In this document: piece by piece, positions 3,384-8,768 of the stretch
How positions within the stretch are numbered: position 1 is the stretch's first letter
Layout: each line of letters begins with the position of its first letter
Virus record (IMG/VR): IMGVR_UViG_2548876869_000013
Location: 1-41,985 of that record
Origin: a virus
Lineage: Duplodnaviria; Heunggongvirae; Uroviricota; Caudoviricetes
DNA: 41,985 nt
Reading direction: 5' to 3' (one strand)
Notes under the pieces: generated by a model
Told to the model about the DNA's origin: nothing
Databases searched by the model: none
Seen by the model: the letters and a program-made list of their open reading frames with translations, nothing else
Translations under genes and position numbers: made by a program

Positions 3384-5363
3384 TTAATTGTGCTCCTTAG
3401 CAAAGCGCAAGCTACCTGCGCTTAATACTGCAGATAACGTATCTCCCACTCTAGTCACACTTAAGTTGCTAGTTCCTGCAATGTAACTAACAGTTGTCGT
3501 TGTTGCCAGTGTCATAACTATTGGTATAGTTATGACTCGTTCTGTACCTCCGCTATCAACAAACTGAACAGATAAAAACTGAAACCTTCTATTTATTTTA
3601 TATGAAAATGATAATCCAGATATGGATAATAATCCACTTTGTCCTATTTTTATATTCCAATCAGAAAAATCAGTTATGTTAGATGGGTCTATATTATTTT
3701 GCGAGTACCATGATGTTATTGCGCCTGATGATGTTTTTCCTTTAAAATAAACAAATGAACTACTTGCTTTTTTAAAATTATTATCACATATGATAACCAC
3801 CTCTTGAGTTGATAGTTTAGTTTCATCATAGAATGCGCTGGTAAGTACTGCGTCATCTGCGTTAACACCCCGTATCTCAGAAATCTTAGTCACACCAGCC
3901 CTGTCAGTGTCTTCCGCTTTGTTTATGAGAGAGTCTGTATTGTTTACCCACGCAGACAGCACTCTAGCCACAGGGGTGTTATACTGACGCATCAATTGCG
4001 AAACACCAGAGATAATACCTGCCTTTAAAGTGATTTCCTGGCAATTGTTGCCGTAAGCAAGGATTGGTTTATTCACCCCATCCCATCTATAATTACCAAC
4101 TTCAACATCAATTCGTCCACCACTGCACCATACAACAGCATTTGTTTGTCCTCCGTCAAACTTAACCCCATAAACAGCACCAACTTTAACAAAAGCGTAG
4201 CGTTCGGCGTTTATTTTCATTTGAAGCGGGTTGTTGCTGGTTCCCGTGACGTACCCAATATCTATACGGCAATTATCTCCTGCGCCATCTACGTTAATGC
4301 CGCGGTGGTCAGATCCAATAACCCCGCCAGAGCCGACAACGCTACAGTTTTCACAAGTAAAGAAACCAATAGGGTTGTTGTTGTGCGGTTTAGAATGAAT
4401 GGAGTTATATTCTGTACCTATCTTGCCGTTAAGAATGTAGGTAACATTTTTCATAACAGCTGTAATTGTGTAGTTATTGTCATCCCAAACCGTTGCATCA
4501 GGGTTAAGAAAATGTGCAAAGGACCACATCCCCCCGGAGTTTAACCCCATAATTTCTGGCCCTACCGTGGGGTCATCGTAACGCCCCATAACTGTAACCC
4601 CAGCTTCGTGGTGTATTTCTATATTATCTCGTAAGGGATGAATAGAGCCAAGAACATAAAAAGTACCTGTTGCACCATATTCAAATTTACTGAATCTTGT
4701 GTCTCTTACCAGTTTTTGAATTACATTACGGTTATGCGCAGCGTTTAGCGGAACATATTCACCTTCAATAATGCCAGCGGAAGCGAAATTAGGCGTCATT
4801 AAAATAAGATACCCGCCAACTGCAGAAATATAAAATATAGGTGACTGTGGTTTTTCAGTTGTAAACACCCAATCTGTTACAACTGGAACATTATAATAAT
4901 AAGTTCTAACCTTTTTCCCATCTGTTAACCCTAATATTGATTGGGCCTGTTCAACGGATGAGCATTCGAGAATAGCACCACCAACGATAATGGCTCCTGC
5001 GCTCCCCTGTAATTCTTGCCGTAGCTGATCAGGATCATACTTCAGAACATTAGGAAAATAGAACTGCTGCACACCGTACGCATCATAAATAGCCATAGAA
5101 TGGCCTTGCACAGTTACGAACTTAGCAATCTGTCCGTTATATACCGGATATCCAGCAGCGTTAATGATGATTGGTTGCGAAACAGGAACGTGAGAACCGT
5201 CTTCGTTTTCCACATAAACCTGAATCTGGTTTTCAGGATTTACCGGGTCAGTGTCAATTTTTCCGATATAAATTTTGCCATTGGCTACGGCTTTAAAAGA
5301 ACGAGCCATAGTGAAGAGTTGCGAAGGCATCGATACGATCACATTGGCTGTAATGTCTGTCAT
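3384..5363 (-). CDS. Tailspike protein; P22 gp9-like N-terminal head-binding domain, divergent receptor-binding domain
   Basis: 659 aa; first ~110 aa ([56 protein letters not shown]) closely match recalled P22 tailspike N-terminus; remainder differs. Confidence 0.9.
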
Positions 5364-5495
5364 TTAATTTGCTCCAGATACAAGGAATCACCGAAGCATG
5401 GCTACGGTTGATGTTTGTTGCATACCGAAATGGTACGATTGTTGATTTGTACAGTAGGTTTTACGATGCCATTCCACCCATTTGGTGAGGCATTG

Positions 5496-5753
5496 ATGAT
5501 GTACAGCAAATACGATGAGGCGCAGTTCCACTTGAGGCTTACGCACGAGTTGCACGCTAAGATTAAGCAGCGTGCAAAAATGAATAACAGGTCTATCAAT
5601 TCCGAAATTGTGGCTACGATGGAAGAATCACTCTCCAAACCATCACCTGTAAGCGGGTATCGTGATGAAGAAGAGAGGTTGGCCTCATTAATCTCGGAGC
5701 GAGTAAAAGAAGTTGCGGCTGATATCCTTAGAAAAGAAAAAACCCGCGATTAA
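5496..5753 (+). CDS. mnt: Mnt-like ribbon-helix-helix repressor
   Basis: Motifs NNRSINSEIV and SKPSPVSGYRDEEERLA match recalled P22 Mnt; ATG at 5496 in frame within ORF 5415-5753. Confidence 0.8.
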   Translation: MMYSKYDEAQFHLRLTHELHAKIKQRAKMNNRSINSEIVATMEESLSKPSPVSGYRDEEERLASLISERVKEVAADILRKEKTRD

Positions 5754-5766
5754 GCGGGTTTAGTTG
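5742..5766. terminator. Bidirectional terminator between convergent mnt and the immI operon end
   Basis: AAAAACCCGCGATTAAGCGGGTTTAG: GC stem with A-run on one side and T-run on the other. Confidence 0.6.
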
Positions 5767-5767
5767 G

Positions 5768-5989
5768 TTAGTTATCAAAAAGTCCGTACGTTTCTTCTTC
5801 TTCAGGTGTAAGGGGAAGAATCTCTACTCTATCTATAGATATCTTTTCAATGTACCCATGAGGTCTACTTAAAATTAAAGCTCTCTCATGCCACAGAACT
5901 CCAAGAATGTGATACCTTCCAGCATCGCCTTTTACCCTGGCTCTTCCTTTGATTCTTGGCGGCATAATGCCATATTTTTTCTTTGCCAT
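5768..5989 (-). CDS. Hypothetical protein, 73 aa, acidic C-terminus; last gene of the immI operon
   Basis: ATG overlaps upstream stop (TAATG) suggesting translational coupling; no family recognised. Confidence 0.5.
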   Translation of the reverse strand: MAKKKYGIMPPRIKGRARVKGDAGRYHILGVLWHERALILSRPHGYIEKISIDRVEILPLTPEEEETYGLFDN

Positions 5990-6717
5990 TATGCAACATT
6001 ACTCCCATGAATCAGGTGTTGTAGTGCTTTAACACCTTCCTCATTGTAGCGGAATGCTTCCACCTGTTTGCTGGAATGCGCAGATTTATCCAGGAAGAAC
6101 TTCCCGTACTGCTCAGTTTTGAGGTTGTTTGCGTTAGCAATGCGACCAATCTTGTTGGCCGTTACTCCAAGCTGCTCTGCAACCTCCCCTGCTGAGTAGT
6201 AATGCTCTTCTATTGCTGGAAGAGGTATTGCATTAAAACCAACGATCGGGTTGATTATGCTTGCTGCCGCAGTCTGCTTTGCTTCCGGCGCAAGATTTGG
6301 CATCAAATCGAACAGATTGGTAACAGCTTCAACCGTCATTTTCAATGTTCGCGCCTGGCGATACTCAACAAGTCCACTAGACGATTTACCGCTTTTAATG
6401 TGCGCTTCTTGCATACTTTCAAGTTGGTCTACAAGTGAGCGGCGAACAGCTTTAGATTCACGAGCAGCCACTCGAAGGGCTTGCTTAATTGACATAACAA
6501 CTTTTTCAGAAGTTGTCTTGTTTGATTTTTGAACTACGAAAATTTCGTAGTGCTCACCTTCAAGTTCATCCTTAATGCGTGCAATAAAGTCGTTATTGCG
6601 GACTTCTTTTTCCCCGCACTGTCTACGAGCATGATTGACCATCTCTAACAGGTACTGGCTATCAATGGTTTTATCCGTGACAACGGATCCGATGTTTGCT
6701 ACATTCTTAAAAGTCAT
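5989..6717 (-). CDS. Rha-like antirepressor-type regulatory protein
   Basis: ATG at 6717 with AAGGAA RBS; N-terminal region parallels the Rha-type protein at 27702-28424; C-terminal HTH-like segment. Family assignment tentative. Confidence 0.6.
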   Translation of the reverse strand: MTFKNVANIGSVVTDKTIDSQYLLEMVNHARRQCGEKEVRNNDFIARIKDELEGEHYEIFVVQKSNKTTSEKVVMSIKQALRVAARESKAVRRSLVDQLESMQEAHIKSGKSSSGLVEYRQARTLKMTVEAVTNLFDLMPNLAPEAKQTAAASIINPIVGFNAIPLPAIEEHYYSAGEVAEQLGVTANKIGRIANANNLKTEQYGKFFLDKSAHSSKQVEAFRYNEEGVKALQHLIHGSNVA

Positions 6718-6790
6718 TAGGCATTCCTTATGTGGTAGTAAGGGTGTGACATAGGCCGCCAGCAGCACACTGGCGGTTTTCTTTTTGCGC
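6694..6790 (+). ncRNA. Putative sar-like antisense RNA unit 2 (promoter, transcript antisense to the RBS of the Rha-like gene, terminator)
   Basis: Plus-strand extended -10 TGCTACATT (6697-6705) inside the 5' end of the minus-strand gene; plus-strand terminator CCGCCAG..CTGGCGG + TTTTCTTTTT (6756-6786). Inferred from architecture. Confidence 0.3.
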
Positions 6791-6805
6791 CGTCCGGCGC
6801 ACCAA

Positions 6806-7432
6806 TCAATGAATCCATTCCTCGCCGCGCAGTTTTGCCAGCATTGGCTGAGCGTTCTTTACGACAAAATTGTTGGTATCAAGATTCTTCATTTCACGAA
6901 GAAGTGATTTCTTGGTTTCTTCTGACATGTAGCGAGTCTCATATGCAATATCGTAAATCCTTCCTGAAAGCTCAGAACCAATTTGCTTCATTCCTGGGTA
7001 GATGTGTTTGCACATTTGTTGACTCTTCTCCATCCACAATTGTAAGTAGCAGAGATTAACCAGTTCTTCGTCAGTAAACTGTTTTGCAATCGGTGAGCAT
7101 TCTGCCTGCCGATCCAAAATATCCAGCACCCAGCGGCGGAACTCTTTGGCTACCTGAGTGCGAGCAAACATCGCGATTAGGTGGGCACCGCGTAGTGAGA
7201 AAACACGCACTTTTTTACGATAATTTCCTGAGGTACTCACTTCGAGTACCTGAGTCATTCCGGCGCTAAACTCATCGCTATACTTGTTATAAATCATTGT
7301 TACTGCACGACTATTTGCGTATTTAAGTGCAGATGCAATATTAGATGATGTAAACCAAACACCATGCATATCACGGGTGGGCACCAATTCAACTCCGTGG
7401 AAGTTGTAATCTGATTTTGCTACAATATTCAT
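6806..7432 (-). CDS. Antirepressor with Bro-N/AntA-type N-terminal domain
   Basis: ATG at 7432 with AGGAAAC RBS (ORF track extends to 7516); N-terminus FHGVELVP..GVWFTSSNIASALKY and ..FRRWV resemble Bro-N antirepressor domains; sits after arc as ant does in P22 immI. Confidence 0.7.
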   Translation of the reverse strand: MNIVAKSDYNFHGVELVPTRDMHGVWFTSSNIASALKYANSRAVTMIYNKYSDEFSAGMTQVLEVSTSGNYRKKVRVFSLRGAHLIAMFARTQVAKEFRRWVLDILDRQAECSPIAKQFTDEELVNLCYLQLWMEKSQQMCKHIYPGMKQIGSELSGRIYDIAYETRYMSEETKKSLLREMKNLDTNNFVVKNAQPMLAKLRGEEWIH

Positions 7433-7510
7433 GTTAGTTTCCTTGCATACGGTTACTGACATAGAGGCCCGGTTTGTGTTCACGCACTGCCGGGCTTCAC
7501 TATTTTTACT
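7418..7510 (+). ncRNA. Putative sar-like antisense RNA unit 1 (antisense to the ant translation-initiation region)
   Basis: Plus-strand extended -10 TGCTACAAT (7418-7426) just inside ant 5' end; plus-strand hairpin GCCCGG..CCGGGC (7469-7498) followed by T-rich run in the arc-ant gap; mirrors the recalled P22 sar arrangement. Confidence 0.35.
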
Positions 7511-7679
7511 GGGCATTAGCTCTTTCCTCTCTCAGGCTTTTAGCCAGTCGCTGCACAATCGCAGAGTTGATAGAAATTCCATCCATTTCAGCAACACGTC
7601 TAATCTCCTCCTTCATTCGCGCTGGCAAACGAAGCTGGAAACTTTGACTTTTACGACCTGTGTAAAGCACATCTTTCAT
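7506..7679 (-). CDS. arc: Arc-like ribbon-helix-helix repressor
   Basis: ATG at 7679 with GGGAGAA RBS; RHH N-terminus (SQSFQLRLPARMKEEIRRVAEMDGISINSAIVQRL); first gene of the arc-ant operon. Confidence 0.7.
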   Translation of the reverse strand: MKDVLYTGRKSQSFQLRLPARMKEEIRRVAEMDGISINSAIVQRLAKSLREERANAQ

Positions 7680-7694
7680 AAGTAATTCTCCCAC

Positions 7695-7790
7695 AATGAT
7701 ACCAACTTGGTTCTAGAACCAATTTAACACCATTTATTTTGATGTCAAGTTGGTGCTATTGTTTAGCGAACATCTTTACGTTGAGGTCAT
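7695..7790. promoter_or_regulatory. Divergent immI promoter region with perfect 16-bp palindrome TTGGTTCTAGAACCAA (7707-7722), likely operator
   Basis: Palindrome read directly; lies between divergent RHH repressor genes. Confidence 0.6.
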
Positions 7791-8111
7791 ATGAGCAAGT
7801 TCCCTAGTCATGAAATGGATAGGTTCAATATCAGGCTTCCTGCAGGAATGCGGGATGCTATAGCTGAACGAGCCAAACGTAACGGCAGATCAATGAACTC
7901 AGAGATTGTTCAGATACTGGAAGATGCCTTGAATGCAGAAAATACACTCGGGGAAATAGCAGATAAAATCAACAGCGTCTCGGTTCCGCTAAATGTTGAT
8001 GCGCTAGTTCAACTTCAAGCCCAGGTTATCGCCATGCAAAAAGAAATACAGGAAAAGTTCAGAGAGCAGAACGAAAAGTTGAGAGAACTGCTAAACAAAA
8101 AAACCACCTGA
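7791..8111 (+). CDS. Second Mnt/Arc-family RHH repressor with coiled-coil-like C-terminus
   Basis: N-terminus FNIRLPAGMRDAIAERAKRNGRSMNSEIVQILEDAL is RHH-like; divergent from arc-ant as mnt is in P22. Confidence 0.7.
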   Translation: MSKFPSHEMDRFNIRLPAGMRDAIAERAKRNGRSMNSEIVQILEDALNAENTLGEIADKINSVSVPLNVDALVQLQAQVIAMQKEIQEKFREQNEKLRELLNKKTT

Positions 8112-8128
8112 CGGTGGGTTAATTTTTG
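8104..8128. terminator. Hairpin terminator at end of RHH repressor gene
   Basis: CCACC-TGAC-GGTGG stem then ATTTTTG; A-run upstream. Confidence 0.5.
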
Positions 8129-8135
8129 CCTTTTT

Positions 8136-8209
8136 TGGACCATATTGACTACTCATAAAATGAGATCAATATTTAATCGCCCAATAACGGGTGCATGTTG
8201 AGGTATATC
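8136..8209 (+). promoter_or_regulatory. Candidate promoter with embedded palindrome CTCATAAAATGAG
   Basis: TTGACT (8145-8150), 17-nt spacer containing 13-bp palindrome 8152-8164, A/T-rich -10-like hexamer; GAGGTA RBS before ATG 8210. Confidence 0.4.
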
Positions 8210-8389
8210 ATGGCGAAAAAACCAGGTGAAAACACAGGAAAAAACGGCGGAATATACCAAGAAGTTGGCCCGCGCGGAGGTAAGAAAGACAATTTTGCCA
8301 CCGTCAAGGACAACGAAAGGCTTCCGCCAACAACAAAGCCAGGTCATGGCTGGGTATTAGATAAGCGAACTCCAGACAGCAAAAAGTAA
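8210..8389 (+). CDS. Small glycine-rich protein, YjzC-like (tentative)
   Basis: 59 aa with motifs GKNGGIYQEVGPRGG and RLPPTTKPGHGW; own RBS and terminator; ATG 8210 in frame within ORF 8195-8389. Confidence 0.55.
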   Translation: MAKKPGENTGKNGGIYQEVGPRGGKKDNFATVKDNERLPPTTKPGHGWVLDKRTPDSKK

Positions 8390-8395
8390 TAATCA

Positions 8396-8418
8396 AGCCG
8401 GGTCACTCCGGCTTTTTG
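8396..8418. terminator. Hairpin terminator shared by convergent genes
   Basis: AGCCGG-GTCACT-CCGGCT then TTTTT. Confidence 0.55.
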
Positions 8419-8768
8419 ATATGTCGCTCGCAGAACTCAACAAGCCTGCTCATTAAGTAGCAGTAAGTCTCGTTGGCTCTTCCTGGTTCAACATCAACGC
8501 CGACCCTTGAGCAGATATCGAATGCCATGTGAGCGCACTCATGGGCAATAGTAGATAGTTTACCATTGAACACACCTATCACATGCAAAACACCATTCTC
8601 GCTGCTCATTGTATGAGACGCTCCGTTGGCATCCGAGTCCTGCACGTCCACGCCAAGTTTTTGATGCAGGCGTTGCCATTCTGGAAAGTCTCTGCAAAAC
8701 ACAATTGTACCGCTCTCAAAGAGCGGAACGAGCATTTTTGGTACGTTTCCAATGTTAACTTTTTTCAT
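8403..8768 (-). CDS. Small protein with HExxH (zincin-like) motif
   Basis: 121 aa; single HECAH motif in STIAHECAHMAFD; RBS before ATG; family not identified. Confidence 0.55.
   Translation of the reverse strand: MKKVNIGNVPKMLVPLFESGTIVFCRDFPEWQRLHQKLGVDVQDSDANGASHTMSSENGVLHVIGVFNGKLSTIAHECAHMAFDICSRVGVDVEPGRANETYCYLMSRLVEFCERHIKKPE

What the first reader, a model, noticed from the sequence alone, without database searches (positions are those of the whole stretch)
5496..8111. Expanded immI region: two antirepressor-type genes, each with a sar-like antisense unit
P22 immI is mnt / arc-ant with one antisense RNA (sar). Here the operon is arc, a Bro-N antirepressor, a Rha-like protein and a 73-aa ORF. 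Both larger genes have on the opposite strand a near-identical extended -10 (TTTGCTACAAT at 7416-7426; TTTGCTACATT at 6695-6705) just inside their 5' ends, plus a plus-strand terminator just upstream of the target gene's start (7469-7510 and 6756-6786). That predicts two ~75-80 nt antisense RNAs covering the two ribosome-binding sites. A duplicated sRNA-controlled antirepressor module has not, to my knowledge, been described for P22-like phages.
Basis: partly seen in the sequence, partly recalled or inferred. Interest (0 to 1): 0.5.

Follow-up and report, generated by a model that had tools for sequence, protein, structure and literature searches.

The report
Two antisense-RNA gates on antirepressor genes
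A P22-like prophage of E. coli 55989 carries two antirepressor-type genes in one operon, and comparison across many phages indicates that each is shut off by its own small antisense RNA: one is a diverged copy of the classic P22 sar RNA, the other a separate, unannotated cassette found in front of several families of such genes.

Summary
Each pair brackets the ribosome-binding site and start codon of a minus-strand gene.

Unit A (RNA about 7433-7507) is a diverged homologue of P22 sar at the arc/ant junction, though Rfam's sar model misses it.

Unit B (RNA about 6712-6786) is a different RNA of the same design, ahead of the second gene. That gene encodes a 242-aa protein with an antirepressor-like predicted fold but no Pfam Rha match.

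The bare pattern is no rarer than chance in this window. The evidence is placement and conservation:
- Synonymous codon positions are invariant exactly at the promoter-critical bases.
- A -35 lies at exactly 17 bp in 118 of 118 related loci.
- The terminator stems covary.
- The signature is present at 55/55 unit-B and 41/44 unit-A sites, against 5/278 control ORF starts.

Unit B recurs across Enterobacterales. It is fused in frame, as a 14-24-residue N-terminal extension, to ant2-type, Rha, ORF6N and KilA-N genes.

The two units are not a recent duplication. I found no expression data and no published description. This is a new variant of a known kind, of moderate interest.

The parts
7791..8111 (+). 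Arc-family (ribbon-helix-helix) gene of 106 aa, in the position of P22 mnt and divergent from the arc operon
   Evidence: Pfam Arc, E 1.6e-20. tblastn gives 54% identity to P22 Mnt over the DNA-binding part only.
7721..7748 (-). Pant-like promoter for the arc operon: TTGACA, 16 bp, TG-extended TAAATT
   Evidence: Best hit of the consensus scan, 10/12 matches. It lies among palindromes such as GGTTCTAGAACC, read directly. Function is inferred.
7506..7679 (-). arc-like repressor gene (57 aa), first gene of the operon
   Evidence: Pfam Arc, E 8e-12. About 42% identity to P22 Arc.
7418..7426 (+). Unit A extended -10 (TGcTACAAT), inside codons 3-5 of the Bro-N gene
   Evidence: Read. Aligns with P22 Psar, TGCTATACT. 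Across 31 distinct gene starts T-12, A-11 and T-7 are invariant, although the amino acids vary.
7433..7507 (+). Predicted RNA-A, the sar homologue (about 75 nt). 5' stem-loop 7433-7460 with the anti-SD UUCCUU at 7439-7444. Terminator hairpin 7464-7498, with a T-run overlapping the arc stop codon
   Evidence: Fold -33.3 kcal/mol, z -6.4, the same two-hairpin shape as P22 sar. Global alignment to P22 sar z 4.5, 0/1000 shuffles. Terminator helix 91% paired, with 5 pairs changed on both sides.
6806..7432 (-). First antirepressor-type gene (208 aa): Bro-N N-domain plus P22_AR_C C-domain
   Evidence: Pfam P22_AR_C 2.7e-14 and Bro-N 9.5e-10. P22 Ant is P22_AR_N + P22_AR_C. PHROG 'anti-repressor Ant'.
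6677..6705 (+). Unit B promoter: GTGACA, 17 bp, TGcTACATT, inside codons 5-14 of the second gene
   Evidence: Promoter scan hit. Invariant in 26 diverse sequences. Third positions of codons 5, 6, 7, 12 and 13 are invariant while other third positions vary. A 5/6 -35 lies at exactly 17 bp in 118/118 loci selected without reference to it.
6712..6786 (+). Predicted RNA-B (about 75 nt). Starts at an invariant A (codon 2, third position). Covers the start codon (6715-6717) and the SD (anti-SD UUCCUU at 6724-6729). Terminator hairpin 6753-6779 followed by UUUUCUUUUU
   Evidence: Terminator scan. Fold -25.1 kcal/mol, z -2.8. Terminator 95.7% paired, 5/10 pairs changed on both sides, 0/500 shuffles as high. 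All variants fold as a 5' stem-loop plus a terminator. On the minus strand the hairpin is followed by no T-run.
5989..6717 (-). Second antirepressor-type gene ('ant2', 242 aa)
   Evidence: No Pfam or NCBIfam hit. PHROG 1726 'anti-repressor', E 9e-101. AF2 model pLDDT 72, with residues 1-14 below 50. Foldseek hits to viral 'antirepressor', 'KilAC' and 'KilA' proteins, E 1e-9 to 1e-5.
5768..5989 (-). 73-aa ORF whose start overlaps the ant2 stop; function unknown
   Evidence: ORF list. PHROG 4977, unknown function. Present or absent among related loci. The controls found no terminator-like hairpin upstream of its start.
5740..5761 (-). Terminator at the end of the arc operon, shared with the convergent mnt2 gene
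   Evidence: Terminator scan: 8-bp stem followed by TTTCTTTTCT on the minus strand.
5496..5753 (+). Third Arc-family gene ('mnt2', 85 aa), convergent with the operon and divergent from the tailspike gene; probably a remnant of a second immI module
   Evidence: Pfam Arc 4e-15. 47% identity to P22 Mnt over residues 4-76. Its 3' half is near-identical in DNA (2 mismatches in the 170 aligned bases) to the Mnt gene of a complete mnt-arc-ant module in L075.

Best explanation
The region is the immI ('ant moron') of a P22-like prophage. One minus-strand operon runs arc, Bro-N/P22_AR_C antirepressor, a second antirepressor-type gene (ant2) and a 73-aa ORF. It has the same orientation as the late operon that reads on into the tailspike gene.

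Each of the two large genes has its own ribosome-binding site. Each is gated by its own cis-antisense RNA of about 75 nt. That RNA starts from a sigma-70 extended -10 promoter embedded in the gene's first codons. It runs across the start codon and Shine-Dalgarno sequence, and ends at an intrinsic terminator in the upstream spacer.

- RNA-A (7433-7507) is the orthologue of P22 sar.
- RNA-B (6712-6786) is a separate RNA family built to the same plan.

By analogy with sar, each RNA pairs with its target leader and blocks translation initiation. The antirepressor-type proteins are then not made from read-through (late or leaky) transcripts unless sense transcription outruns the antisense RNA.

Unit B is a transferable 5' cassette of terminator, leader and a 14-24-codon N-terminal extension that carries the promoter. 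It is found fused to ant2-type, Rha, ORF6N and KilA-N genes.

**Shown here:** the sequence elements, their conservation, the covariation and the modular distribution. **Inferred:** transcription of the RNAs, translational repression, and antirepressor activity of either protein.
For: **Anatomy.**

**Unit A is homologous to P22 sar.**
- Same position relative to the arc stop and the ant start, and the same ATTCATGTT context.
- Global alignment z 4.5, 0/1000 shuffles. L025 is intermediate between the two: 64/75 bases identical to RNA-A and z 5.9 against P22 sar, with a 5' end (GTTGGTTTT...) closer to P22's.
- Sar-like units occur at both Bro-N-type and P22-Ant-type first genes.
- Terminator covariation.
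- The -10-critical bases are invariant across variable amino acids.

**Unit B.**
- -35 and TGnTAnAnT are invariant in 26 diverse sequences from E. coli, Klebsiella, Salmonella, Serratia, Proteus, Erwinia, Pantoea and others.
- Third positions of codons 2, 5, 6, 7, 12 and 13 have zero entropy, against about 1-1.8 bits at most other third positions. Amino-acid changes fall only on non-critical promoter bases.
- The hairpin is 95.7% paired with 5 compensatory pairs.
- A 5/6 -35 sits at exactly 17 bp in 118/118 loci found with a pattern that did not include it, although the spacers are unrelated.
- The hairpin has a T-run only on the + strand.

**Specificity.** 55/55 and 41/44 sites, against 5/278 control ORF starts.

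**Cassette.** Pfam domains (Rha, KilA-N, ORF6N) begin at residues 15-25, directly after the extension. Residues 1-14 of ant2 are predicted with low confidence.

**Protein identities.**

**Published sar mechanism.** PMC12197685 and PMC7968456; PMC2629481.
Against: - No transcript evidence of any kind was available.
- Rfam's sar model (RF00262) does not hit either unit even at E <= 10.
- The bare promoter-plus-terminator pattern is not rarer than chance in the window.
- Unit A has a poor -35 (TGGAAG) and was not picked up by the promoter scan.
- RNA-B folds only modestly better than shuffles (z -2.8). No consensus 5' structure emerged from the MAFFT alignment.
- In the predicted folds the anti-SD is often partly paired rather than displayed in a loop.
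- Four related loci with a different 5' end (L076, L077, L079, L080) show no clear unit B (and my reading of it).
- Antirepressor activity of either protein is annotation and fold-level inference only.
Confidence: 0.7

Rival explanations
1. Only unit A (sar) is a real antisense gene. The unit B signals are not an RNA gene. On this view the hairpin is an mRNA stability or processing element, or stops stray + strand transcription. The conserved first 14 codons would reflect a protein or translation-initiation requirement.
For: The composite pattern occurs by chance about 1.4 times per window. RNA-B is only modestly stable (z -2.8). There is no consensus 5' structure. No expression data exist.
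Against: Selection acts on synonymous sites exactly at -35, TGn and -10 positions, while the amino acids vary. The 17-bp spacing is strict despite unrelated spacers, in four gene families. The extension is predicted with low confidence and lies outside every Pfam domain. The T-run is on the + strand only. The nearest + strand gene upstream ends about 1 kb away at its own hairpin.
Confidence: 0.08
2. The antisense RNAs exist but work mainly in another way than by blocking the ribosome. Options are RNase III cleavage of the duplex that severs and destabilises the polycistronic mRNA, or transcriptional interference between convergent promoters.
For: Each RNA is fully complementary to about 75 nt of the sense transcript, so a long duplex is possible. 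Each promoter faces the operon promoter.
Against: Both RNAs are placed precisely over the SD and start codon, in every variant. For sar the reported mechanism is interference with translation initiation (PMC12197685). Nothing in the sequence discriminates between the modes, and they are not exclusive.
Confidence: 0.15
3. The second gene is not an immunity antirepressor but a host-harmful 'Kil/Rha/Bro-type' early protein. RNA-B would then act like a type I antitoxin that keeps the lysogen safe, rather than as part of the lysis-lysogeny control.
For: ant2 has no assigned family. The same cassette gates KilA-N, Rha and ORF6N proteins whose functions are mostly untested. The only, very weak, Rfam resemblance of unit A is to the SymR antitoxin RNA (E 0.8).
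Against: The locus context is immI, with Arc- and Mnt-type repressors. Fold matches are to proteins named antirepressor or KilAC, and PHROG 1726 is labelled anti-repressor. All of these are names rather than tests, so this rival cannot be excluded.
Confidence: 0.2

Closest known systems
P22 sar RNA (Rfam RF00262) in the immI region (mnt / arc-ant)
   Same: Unit A occupies the same place: the promoter is in the first codons of ant, the start is next to the start codon, and the terminator overlaps the end of arc. It has the same two-hairpin shape and significant sequence similarity. Unit B has the same design and the same predicted mode of action.
   Different: Neither unit is recognised by RF00262. 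The unit A target is a Bro-N rather than a P22_AR_N antirepressor. Unit B sits two codons deeper in its gene, targets the second cistron, has no significant similarity to P22 sar (z 0.6), and is attached to four other gene families.
c4 RNA / icd-ant of phages P1 and P7
   Same: A small RNA blocks the ribosome-binding region of an antirepressor mRNA and sets immunity specificity (PMC12197685).
   Different: From my own knowledge, c4 is cut out of the same transcript as its target and pairs through short loop sequences. The RNAs here are made from the opposite strand and are fully complementary. Membership was not tested.
IS10 RNA-OUT / RNA-IN
   Same: From my own knowledge, the antisense promoter lies inside the 5' end of the regulated gene and the RNA covers its ribosome-binding site. 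The IS10 paper is listed in the reference list of PMC7968456.
   Different: A transposase rather than a phage regulator. No sequence relation was looked for.
'ant moron' diversity of P22-like phages (Villafane et al. 2008, PMC2629481)
   Same: The same genomic slot between the gene 16 homologue and the tailspike gene, with variable gene content including ant homologues, arc and mnt.
   Different: That survey mentions only one antisense RNA (sar). It does not describe a second antisense unit or a transferable cassette.

Membership tests
sar RNA (Rfam RF00262) | Match to the covariance model at the gathering score | tested here: not met
   No hit in the window at gathering. No sar hit at E <= 10 in 5300-8500. 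The model scores P22 itself at 96 bits, so it appears narrow.
sar RNA (Rfam RF00262) | Antisense gene at the arc/ant junction: promoter in the first ant codons, start beside the ant start codon, terminator at the arc 3' end | tested here: met
   Met for unit A. Unit B has the same layout, but at the ant/ant2 junction.
sar RNA (Rfam RF00262) | Sequence homology to P22 sar | tested here: met
   Unit A: 52 identical bases, z 4.5, 0/1000 shuffles. L025 is intermediate between RNA-A and P22 sar. Unit B: z 0.6, not met.
sar RNA (Rfam RF00262) | Two hairpins: a 5' stem-loop holding the anti-SD, and an intrinsic terminator | tested here: met
   Units A and B and all their variants fold this way. The terminator helices covary. 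5' stem covariation is seen only in per-sequence folds, not in a column alignment.
sar RNA (Rfam RF00262) | The RNA is made and represses ant translation | not testable with these tools
   I found no expression data, and no paper describing these units.
P22-type immI region | Arc-family repressor as first gene, a divergent Mnt-like gene, and a position between the ejection-protein and tailspike genes | tested here: met
   Pfam Arc on 7506-7679 and 7791-8111. Synteny with P22 and JEP4.
P22-type immI region | Antirepressor of P22 Ant architecture (P22_AR_N + P22_AR_C) | tested here: inconclusive
   The C-domain P22_AR_C is present, but the N-domain is Bro-N instead of P22_AR_N. Activity against a C2-type repressor was not tested.
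Rha family (Pfam PF09669 / TIGR02681), for the second gene | Match to the Phage_pRha domain | tested here: not met
   No Pfam or NCBIfam hit for the window's 242-aa protein. Relatives with the same 5' cassette and C-domain (L098, L112) do match, at 7e-14.
Antirepressor KilAC/ANT-type proteins, for the second gene | Sequence match to Pfam ANT (PF03374), or fold similarity to such proteins | tested here: inconclusive
   No Pfam ANT hit. The model has moderate confidence, pLDDT 72. Foldseek hits viral proteins named antirepressor, KilAC or KilA at E 1e-9 to 1e-5, but with low global TM of 0.3-0.4.

The most novel reading that the evidence does not exclude
Enterobacterial temperate phages carry a transferable 'antisense gate' cassette. 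It consists of an intrinsic terminator, a leader, and a short in-frame N-terminal extension whose codons encode a sigma-70 promoter on the opposite strand. Recombination places this cassette in front of unrelated antirepressor-type genes (ant2, Rha, ORF6N, KilA-N). immI regions are therefore arrays of two or three such genes, each locked by its own RNA. This would give RNA-level immunity specificity in addition to Arc and Mnt.
Probability: 0.45. Interest if true: 0.6.

Novelty: new variant of a known kind. Interest (0 to 1): 0.5.

Why it matters
Sar is the textbook case of antisense control of a phage antirepressor, but it is treated as a single RNA of P22.

If both RNAs here are real, antisense gating is a general, modular feature of antirepressor-type genes in enterobacterial prophages. 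One operon can then carry several independently locked anti-immunity genes.

That would explain three things:
- why unrelated proteins share a short N-terminal peptide;
- why annotated start codons in some phage records are probably wrong;
- why current RNA annotation (Rfam, PGAP) misses these genes: about 1.4% of complete E. coli genomes carry near-identical copies of each unit with no RNA feature annotated.

It also gives concrete handles, in the form of synonymous promoter mutations, for testing what Rha, ORF6N, KilA-N and 'ant2' proteins do in induction and superinfection.

Tried and rejected
- **Rfam.** Scans at the gathering threshold and at E <= 10 found no sar hit. The only hit at unit A is a chance-level SymR match, E 0.8.
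- **Chance test of the bare pattern.** An extended -10 followed by a hairpin and T-run is not enriched: 2 observed against 1.4 expected. I dropped this as an argument.
- **Units A and B as duplicates.**
  - Local alignment of the RNA parts is not significant: 190/1000 shuffles score as high.
  - The promoter segment is marginal, at 19/1000.
  - Global alignment gives z 2.8.
  - I rejected a recent duplication and left distant common origin open.
- **Column-wise covariation of the 5' stem-loops.** MAFFT does not align them consistently, and RNAalifold returns only the terminators. I relied on per-sequence folds instead. I built no covariance model.
- **Identity of ant2.** Pfam, NCBIfam and a PDB sequence-profile search gave nothing. 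Only PHROGs and the fold search were informative.
- **Literature.** Four full-text searches and five papers read. None describes a second antisense RNA in immI. The 1997 sar structure paper is not held.
- **mnt2 as the true Mnt of this operon.** Considered and set aside. It looks like a remnant of a second module.
Full report
**Where this is.**

The window is 100% identical to a P22-like prophage of E. coli 55989. Gene order matches the 'ant moron' / immI slot of P22-like phages (PMC2629481), between the ejection-protein genes and the tailspike gene. In window coordinates the layout is:

| Coordinates | Strand | Feature |
|---|---|---|
| 3384-5363 | - | tailspike |
| 5496-5753 | + | Arc-family gene, 'mnt2' |
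| 5768-5989 | - | 73-aa ORF |
| 5989-6717 | - | 242-aa gene, 'ant2' |
| 6806-7432 | - | 208-aa gene |
| 7506-7679 | - | arc-like gene |
| 7791-8111 | + | Arc-family gene, divergent, in the mnt position |

The 208-aa protein is Bro-N + P22_AR_C. P22 Ant is P22_AR_N + P22_AR_C. RefSeq annotates only protein-coding genes here.

**Checking the observation.**

- Unit B has GTGACA, 17 bp, TGcTACATT (6677-6705). A + strand terminator follows at 6753-6779 with TTTTCTTTTT.
- Unit A has TGcTACAAT (7418-7426) with a weak -35. A strong hairpin lies at 7464-7498 and is followed by a T-run that overlaps the arc stop codon.
- In both, the minus-strand start codon (7430-7432; 6715-6717) and the Shine-Dalgarno complement (UUCCUU) lie between the -10 and the terminator.
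- On the minus strand the unit B hairpin has an A-run before it and no T-run after it, so it should not stop the operon transcript.
- The bare pattern is not statistically remarkable. My permissive composite search finds 2 sites in the window, against a mean of 1.4 in simulated sequences. The case rests on placement and conservation.

**Unit A is the sar homologue.**

- P22's annotated sar (L002 3446-3515) and unit A share the context TTGCTAnAnTATTCATGTT, the TTACTGAC segment and a GC-rich terminator ending at the arc stop.
- Global alignment of the two RNAs gives z 4.5, with 0 of 1000 shuffles as high. L025 is intermediate: 64 of 75 bases identical to RNA-A and z 5.9 against P22 sar, with a 5' end (GTTGGTTTT...) closer to P22's.
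- Both fold as a 5' stem-loop plus terminator: -33.3 kcal/mol (z -6.4) for unit A, and -28.8 (z -4.9) for P22 sar.
- Rfam RF00262 scores P22 at 96 bits but misses unit A even at E <= 10, so the model appears narrow.
- In 44 distinct related sequences, sar-like units sit at the start of both Bro-N-type and P22-Ant-type first genes.
- The terminator helix is 91% paired, with five pairs changed on both sides.
- Across 31 distinct gene starts, the bases that give T-12, A-11 and T-7 never change, although the encoded residues do: V/I/L at codon 4 and I/S/N at codon 3.

**Unit B is a distinct, conserved antisense unit.**

Homologues of ant2 were collected from IMG/VR (80 loci) and from other Enterobacterales genomes: Serratia, Buttiauxella, Pantoea, Citrobacter, Proteus, Erwinia, Kluyvera and others.

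- *Promoter in a 26-sequence alignment.* The -35 (GTGACA) and TGnTAnAnT are invariant, while the flanks are about 58% identical.
- *Codon analysis of 36 distinct 5' ends.*
  - Third positions of codons 2, 5, 6, 7, 12 and 13 have zero entropy, while most other third positions have 0.8-1.9 bits.
  - The amino acids vary at codons 5 (N/T), 6 (V/L), 7 (A/T/S) and 12 (V/S/A/I).
  - They vary only through the bases that correspond to non-critical promoter positions, for example the N of TGN.
  - The invariant A at codon 2, third position, lies 7 nt after the -10. It is the predicted start, window 6712.
- *Terminator.* The hairpin is 95.7% paired. Five of 10 pairs are changed on both sides, and 0/500 shuffles reach this.
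- *Fold.* Every variant folds into a 5' stem-loop plus terminator. No column-wise consensus for the 5' part could be obtained from MAFFT alignments.
- *Specificity.* The -10-plus-terminator signature is present at 55/55 unit-B and 41/44 unit-A sites. It is present at 5/278 other ORF starts in the same loci. It is absent at mnt2 and at the 73-aa ORF, and present at 1/16 arc starts.

**A transferable cassette.**

A pattern made only of the -10 and the hairpin was scanned against IMG/VR.

- The gene starting inside the unit is ant2-type in about 63 loci, ORF6N-type in about 35 and Rha-type in about 16. In one locus it is KilA-N + ANT.
- The Pfam domain begins at residue 15-25 in each case. It comes directly after a short extension such as MTKLTVANRSAVVTK-MSSREIA or MQQSSSTVVNVANHHHAVT-MSSREIA.
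- All 118 loci with an ORF have a 5/6 -35 (GTGACA, TCGACA, ATGACA or TGGACA) at exactly 17 bp. The pattern did not ask for a -35, and the spacers are unrelated between classes.
- Residues 1-14 of ant2 are predicted with pLDDT below 50.
- The unit therefore travels as terminator, leader and promoter-bearing N-terminal extension. It is joined to different upstream genes: Bro-N/P22_AR_C-type in at least 65 of 101 loci, and P22-Ant-type in others. The sequence breakpoints lie just beyond the T-run.
- Some loci carry three ant-type genes: Bro-N gene, ant2, 73-aa ORF, then mnt, arc and a P22-type ant (L010, L011, L075).

**What the second protein is.**

- There is no Pfam, NCBIfam or PDB-sequence match.
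- PHROG 1726 is labelled 'anti-repressor'.
- Of the homologues listed, almost all carry the name 'hypothetical protein'.
- An AlphaFold model of moderate confidence matches viral proteins named antirepressor, KilAC or KilA at Foldseek E 1e-9 to 1e-5, with low global TM as expected for two loosely linked domains.
- 'Rha-like' is therefore not met for this protein. Relatives with the same C-domain and cassette are Rha-domain proteins. 'Antirepressor-type' is the fair label, and function is untested.

**Are the two units a duplication?**

No recent one. The genes belong to different families.

- Local alignment of the RNA parts is not significant: 190/1000 shuffles score as high.
- The promoter segment is marginal, at 19/1000.
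- Global alignment gives z 2.8 for A against B and z 0.6 for B against P22 sar.
- The two share a design and a few motifs: TTTGCTACA, UUCCUU and UGACAUAG.

**Mechanism proposed.**

Published work on sar describes an RNA of 68-69 nt that pairs with the ant leader and blocks translation initiation. It is needed for proper control of antirepressor synthesis during establishment of lysogeny (PMC12197685, PMC7968456).

The operon here is co-oriented with the late operon and lies upstream of the tailspike gene. Read-through transcripts would therefore carry both ant-type cistrons. Each cistron has its own SD, with an 88-nt spacer between them, so each needs its own block. I infer that RNA-A and RNA-B provide it. 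Expression, pairing and the proteins' activities are all inferred.

**Prevalence and novelty.**

- Near-identical copies of unit B occur in 77 of 5426 complete E. coli genomes, and copies of unit A in 76. No RNA feature is listed under the hits shown.
- Both units also occur in phages JEP4, Klebsiella KP12 and the Salmonella phage SPN3UB, which is not classified as a P22-like Lederbergvirus.
- Four full-text searches and the papers read mention only the single sar.
- I rate this a new variant of a known kind. It would be a solid comparative finding for phage specialists, not a surprise in principle.

Noticed in passing
window 5364-5753: The third Arc-family gene (mnt2) is convergent with the operon and divergent from the tailspike gene. 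Its 3' half is near-identical in DNA (2 mismatches in the 170 aligned bases) to the Mnt gene of a complete second mnt-arc-ant module in L075. It therefore looks like the remnant of a second immI unit. The 132-bp spacer to the tailspike start holds partial inverted repeats (CACC..GGTG; AATGGCATCG..CGTACCATT) that could be its operator.
   Followed up: partly
L010, L011, L075 (IMG/VR loci): These loci carry three antirepressor-type genes in a row: Bro-N gene, ant2, 73-aa ORF, then mnt, arc and a P22-type ant. The third gene has its own sar-like unit.
   Followed up: partly
window 6787-6800: A GC-rich palindrome (GCGCCGTCCGGCGC) lies directly after the RNA-B T-run and just downstream of the Bro-N gene stop codon. 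A similar GCGCC...GCGC(C) element is present in many related loci. Its role is unknown.
   Followed up: no
window 7695-7760: Palindromes (GGTTCTAGAACC; ACCAACTTGGT / CAAGTTGGT) overlap the Pant-like promoter between arc and the divergent Arc-family gene. They are also present in Klebsiella phage KP12. They are likely Arc/Mnt-type operators.
   Followed up: no
L006 1901-2623 (SPN3UB gp21); L004 2751-3434 (KP12_369): In these GenBank records the Bro-N antirepressor CDS is annotated from an upstream ATG that overlaps arc and runs through the sar-like RNA and its terminator. Conservation of MNIVAKS... and of the antisense unit suggests the true start is the downstream ATG.
   Followed up: partly
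L076, L077, L079, L080 (positions about 2400-2520): Four loci encode an ant2 homologue (about 80% identity) with a different 5' end, probably a GTG start (VVNNIANHSS...). I could not recognise a TGnTAnnnT promoter or a clear terminator there. These may be ungated copies in a different context, with Bro-N genes downstream.
   Followed up: no
L109 110-243 (Advenella MAG): A betaproteobacterial Rha-type homologue keeps the promoter and a hairpin, but the hairpin is not followed by a T-run.
   Followed up: no
window 8095-8498: This stretch is 97% identical to P22 (end of mnt, orf59a and the terminator), whereas the rest of immI is not P22-like. It marks a sharp mosaic boundary at the 3' end of the 106-aa Arc-family gene.
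   Followed up: no
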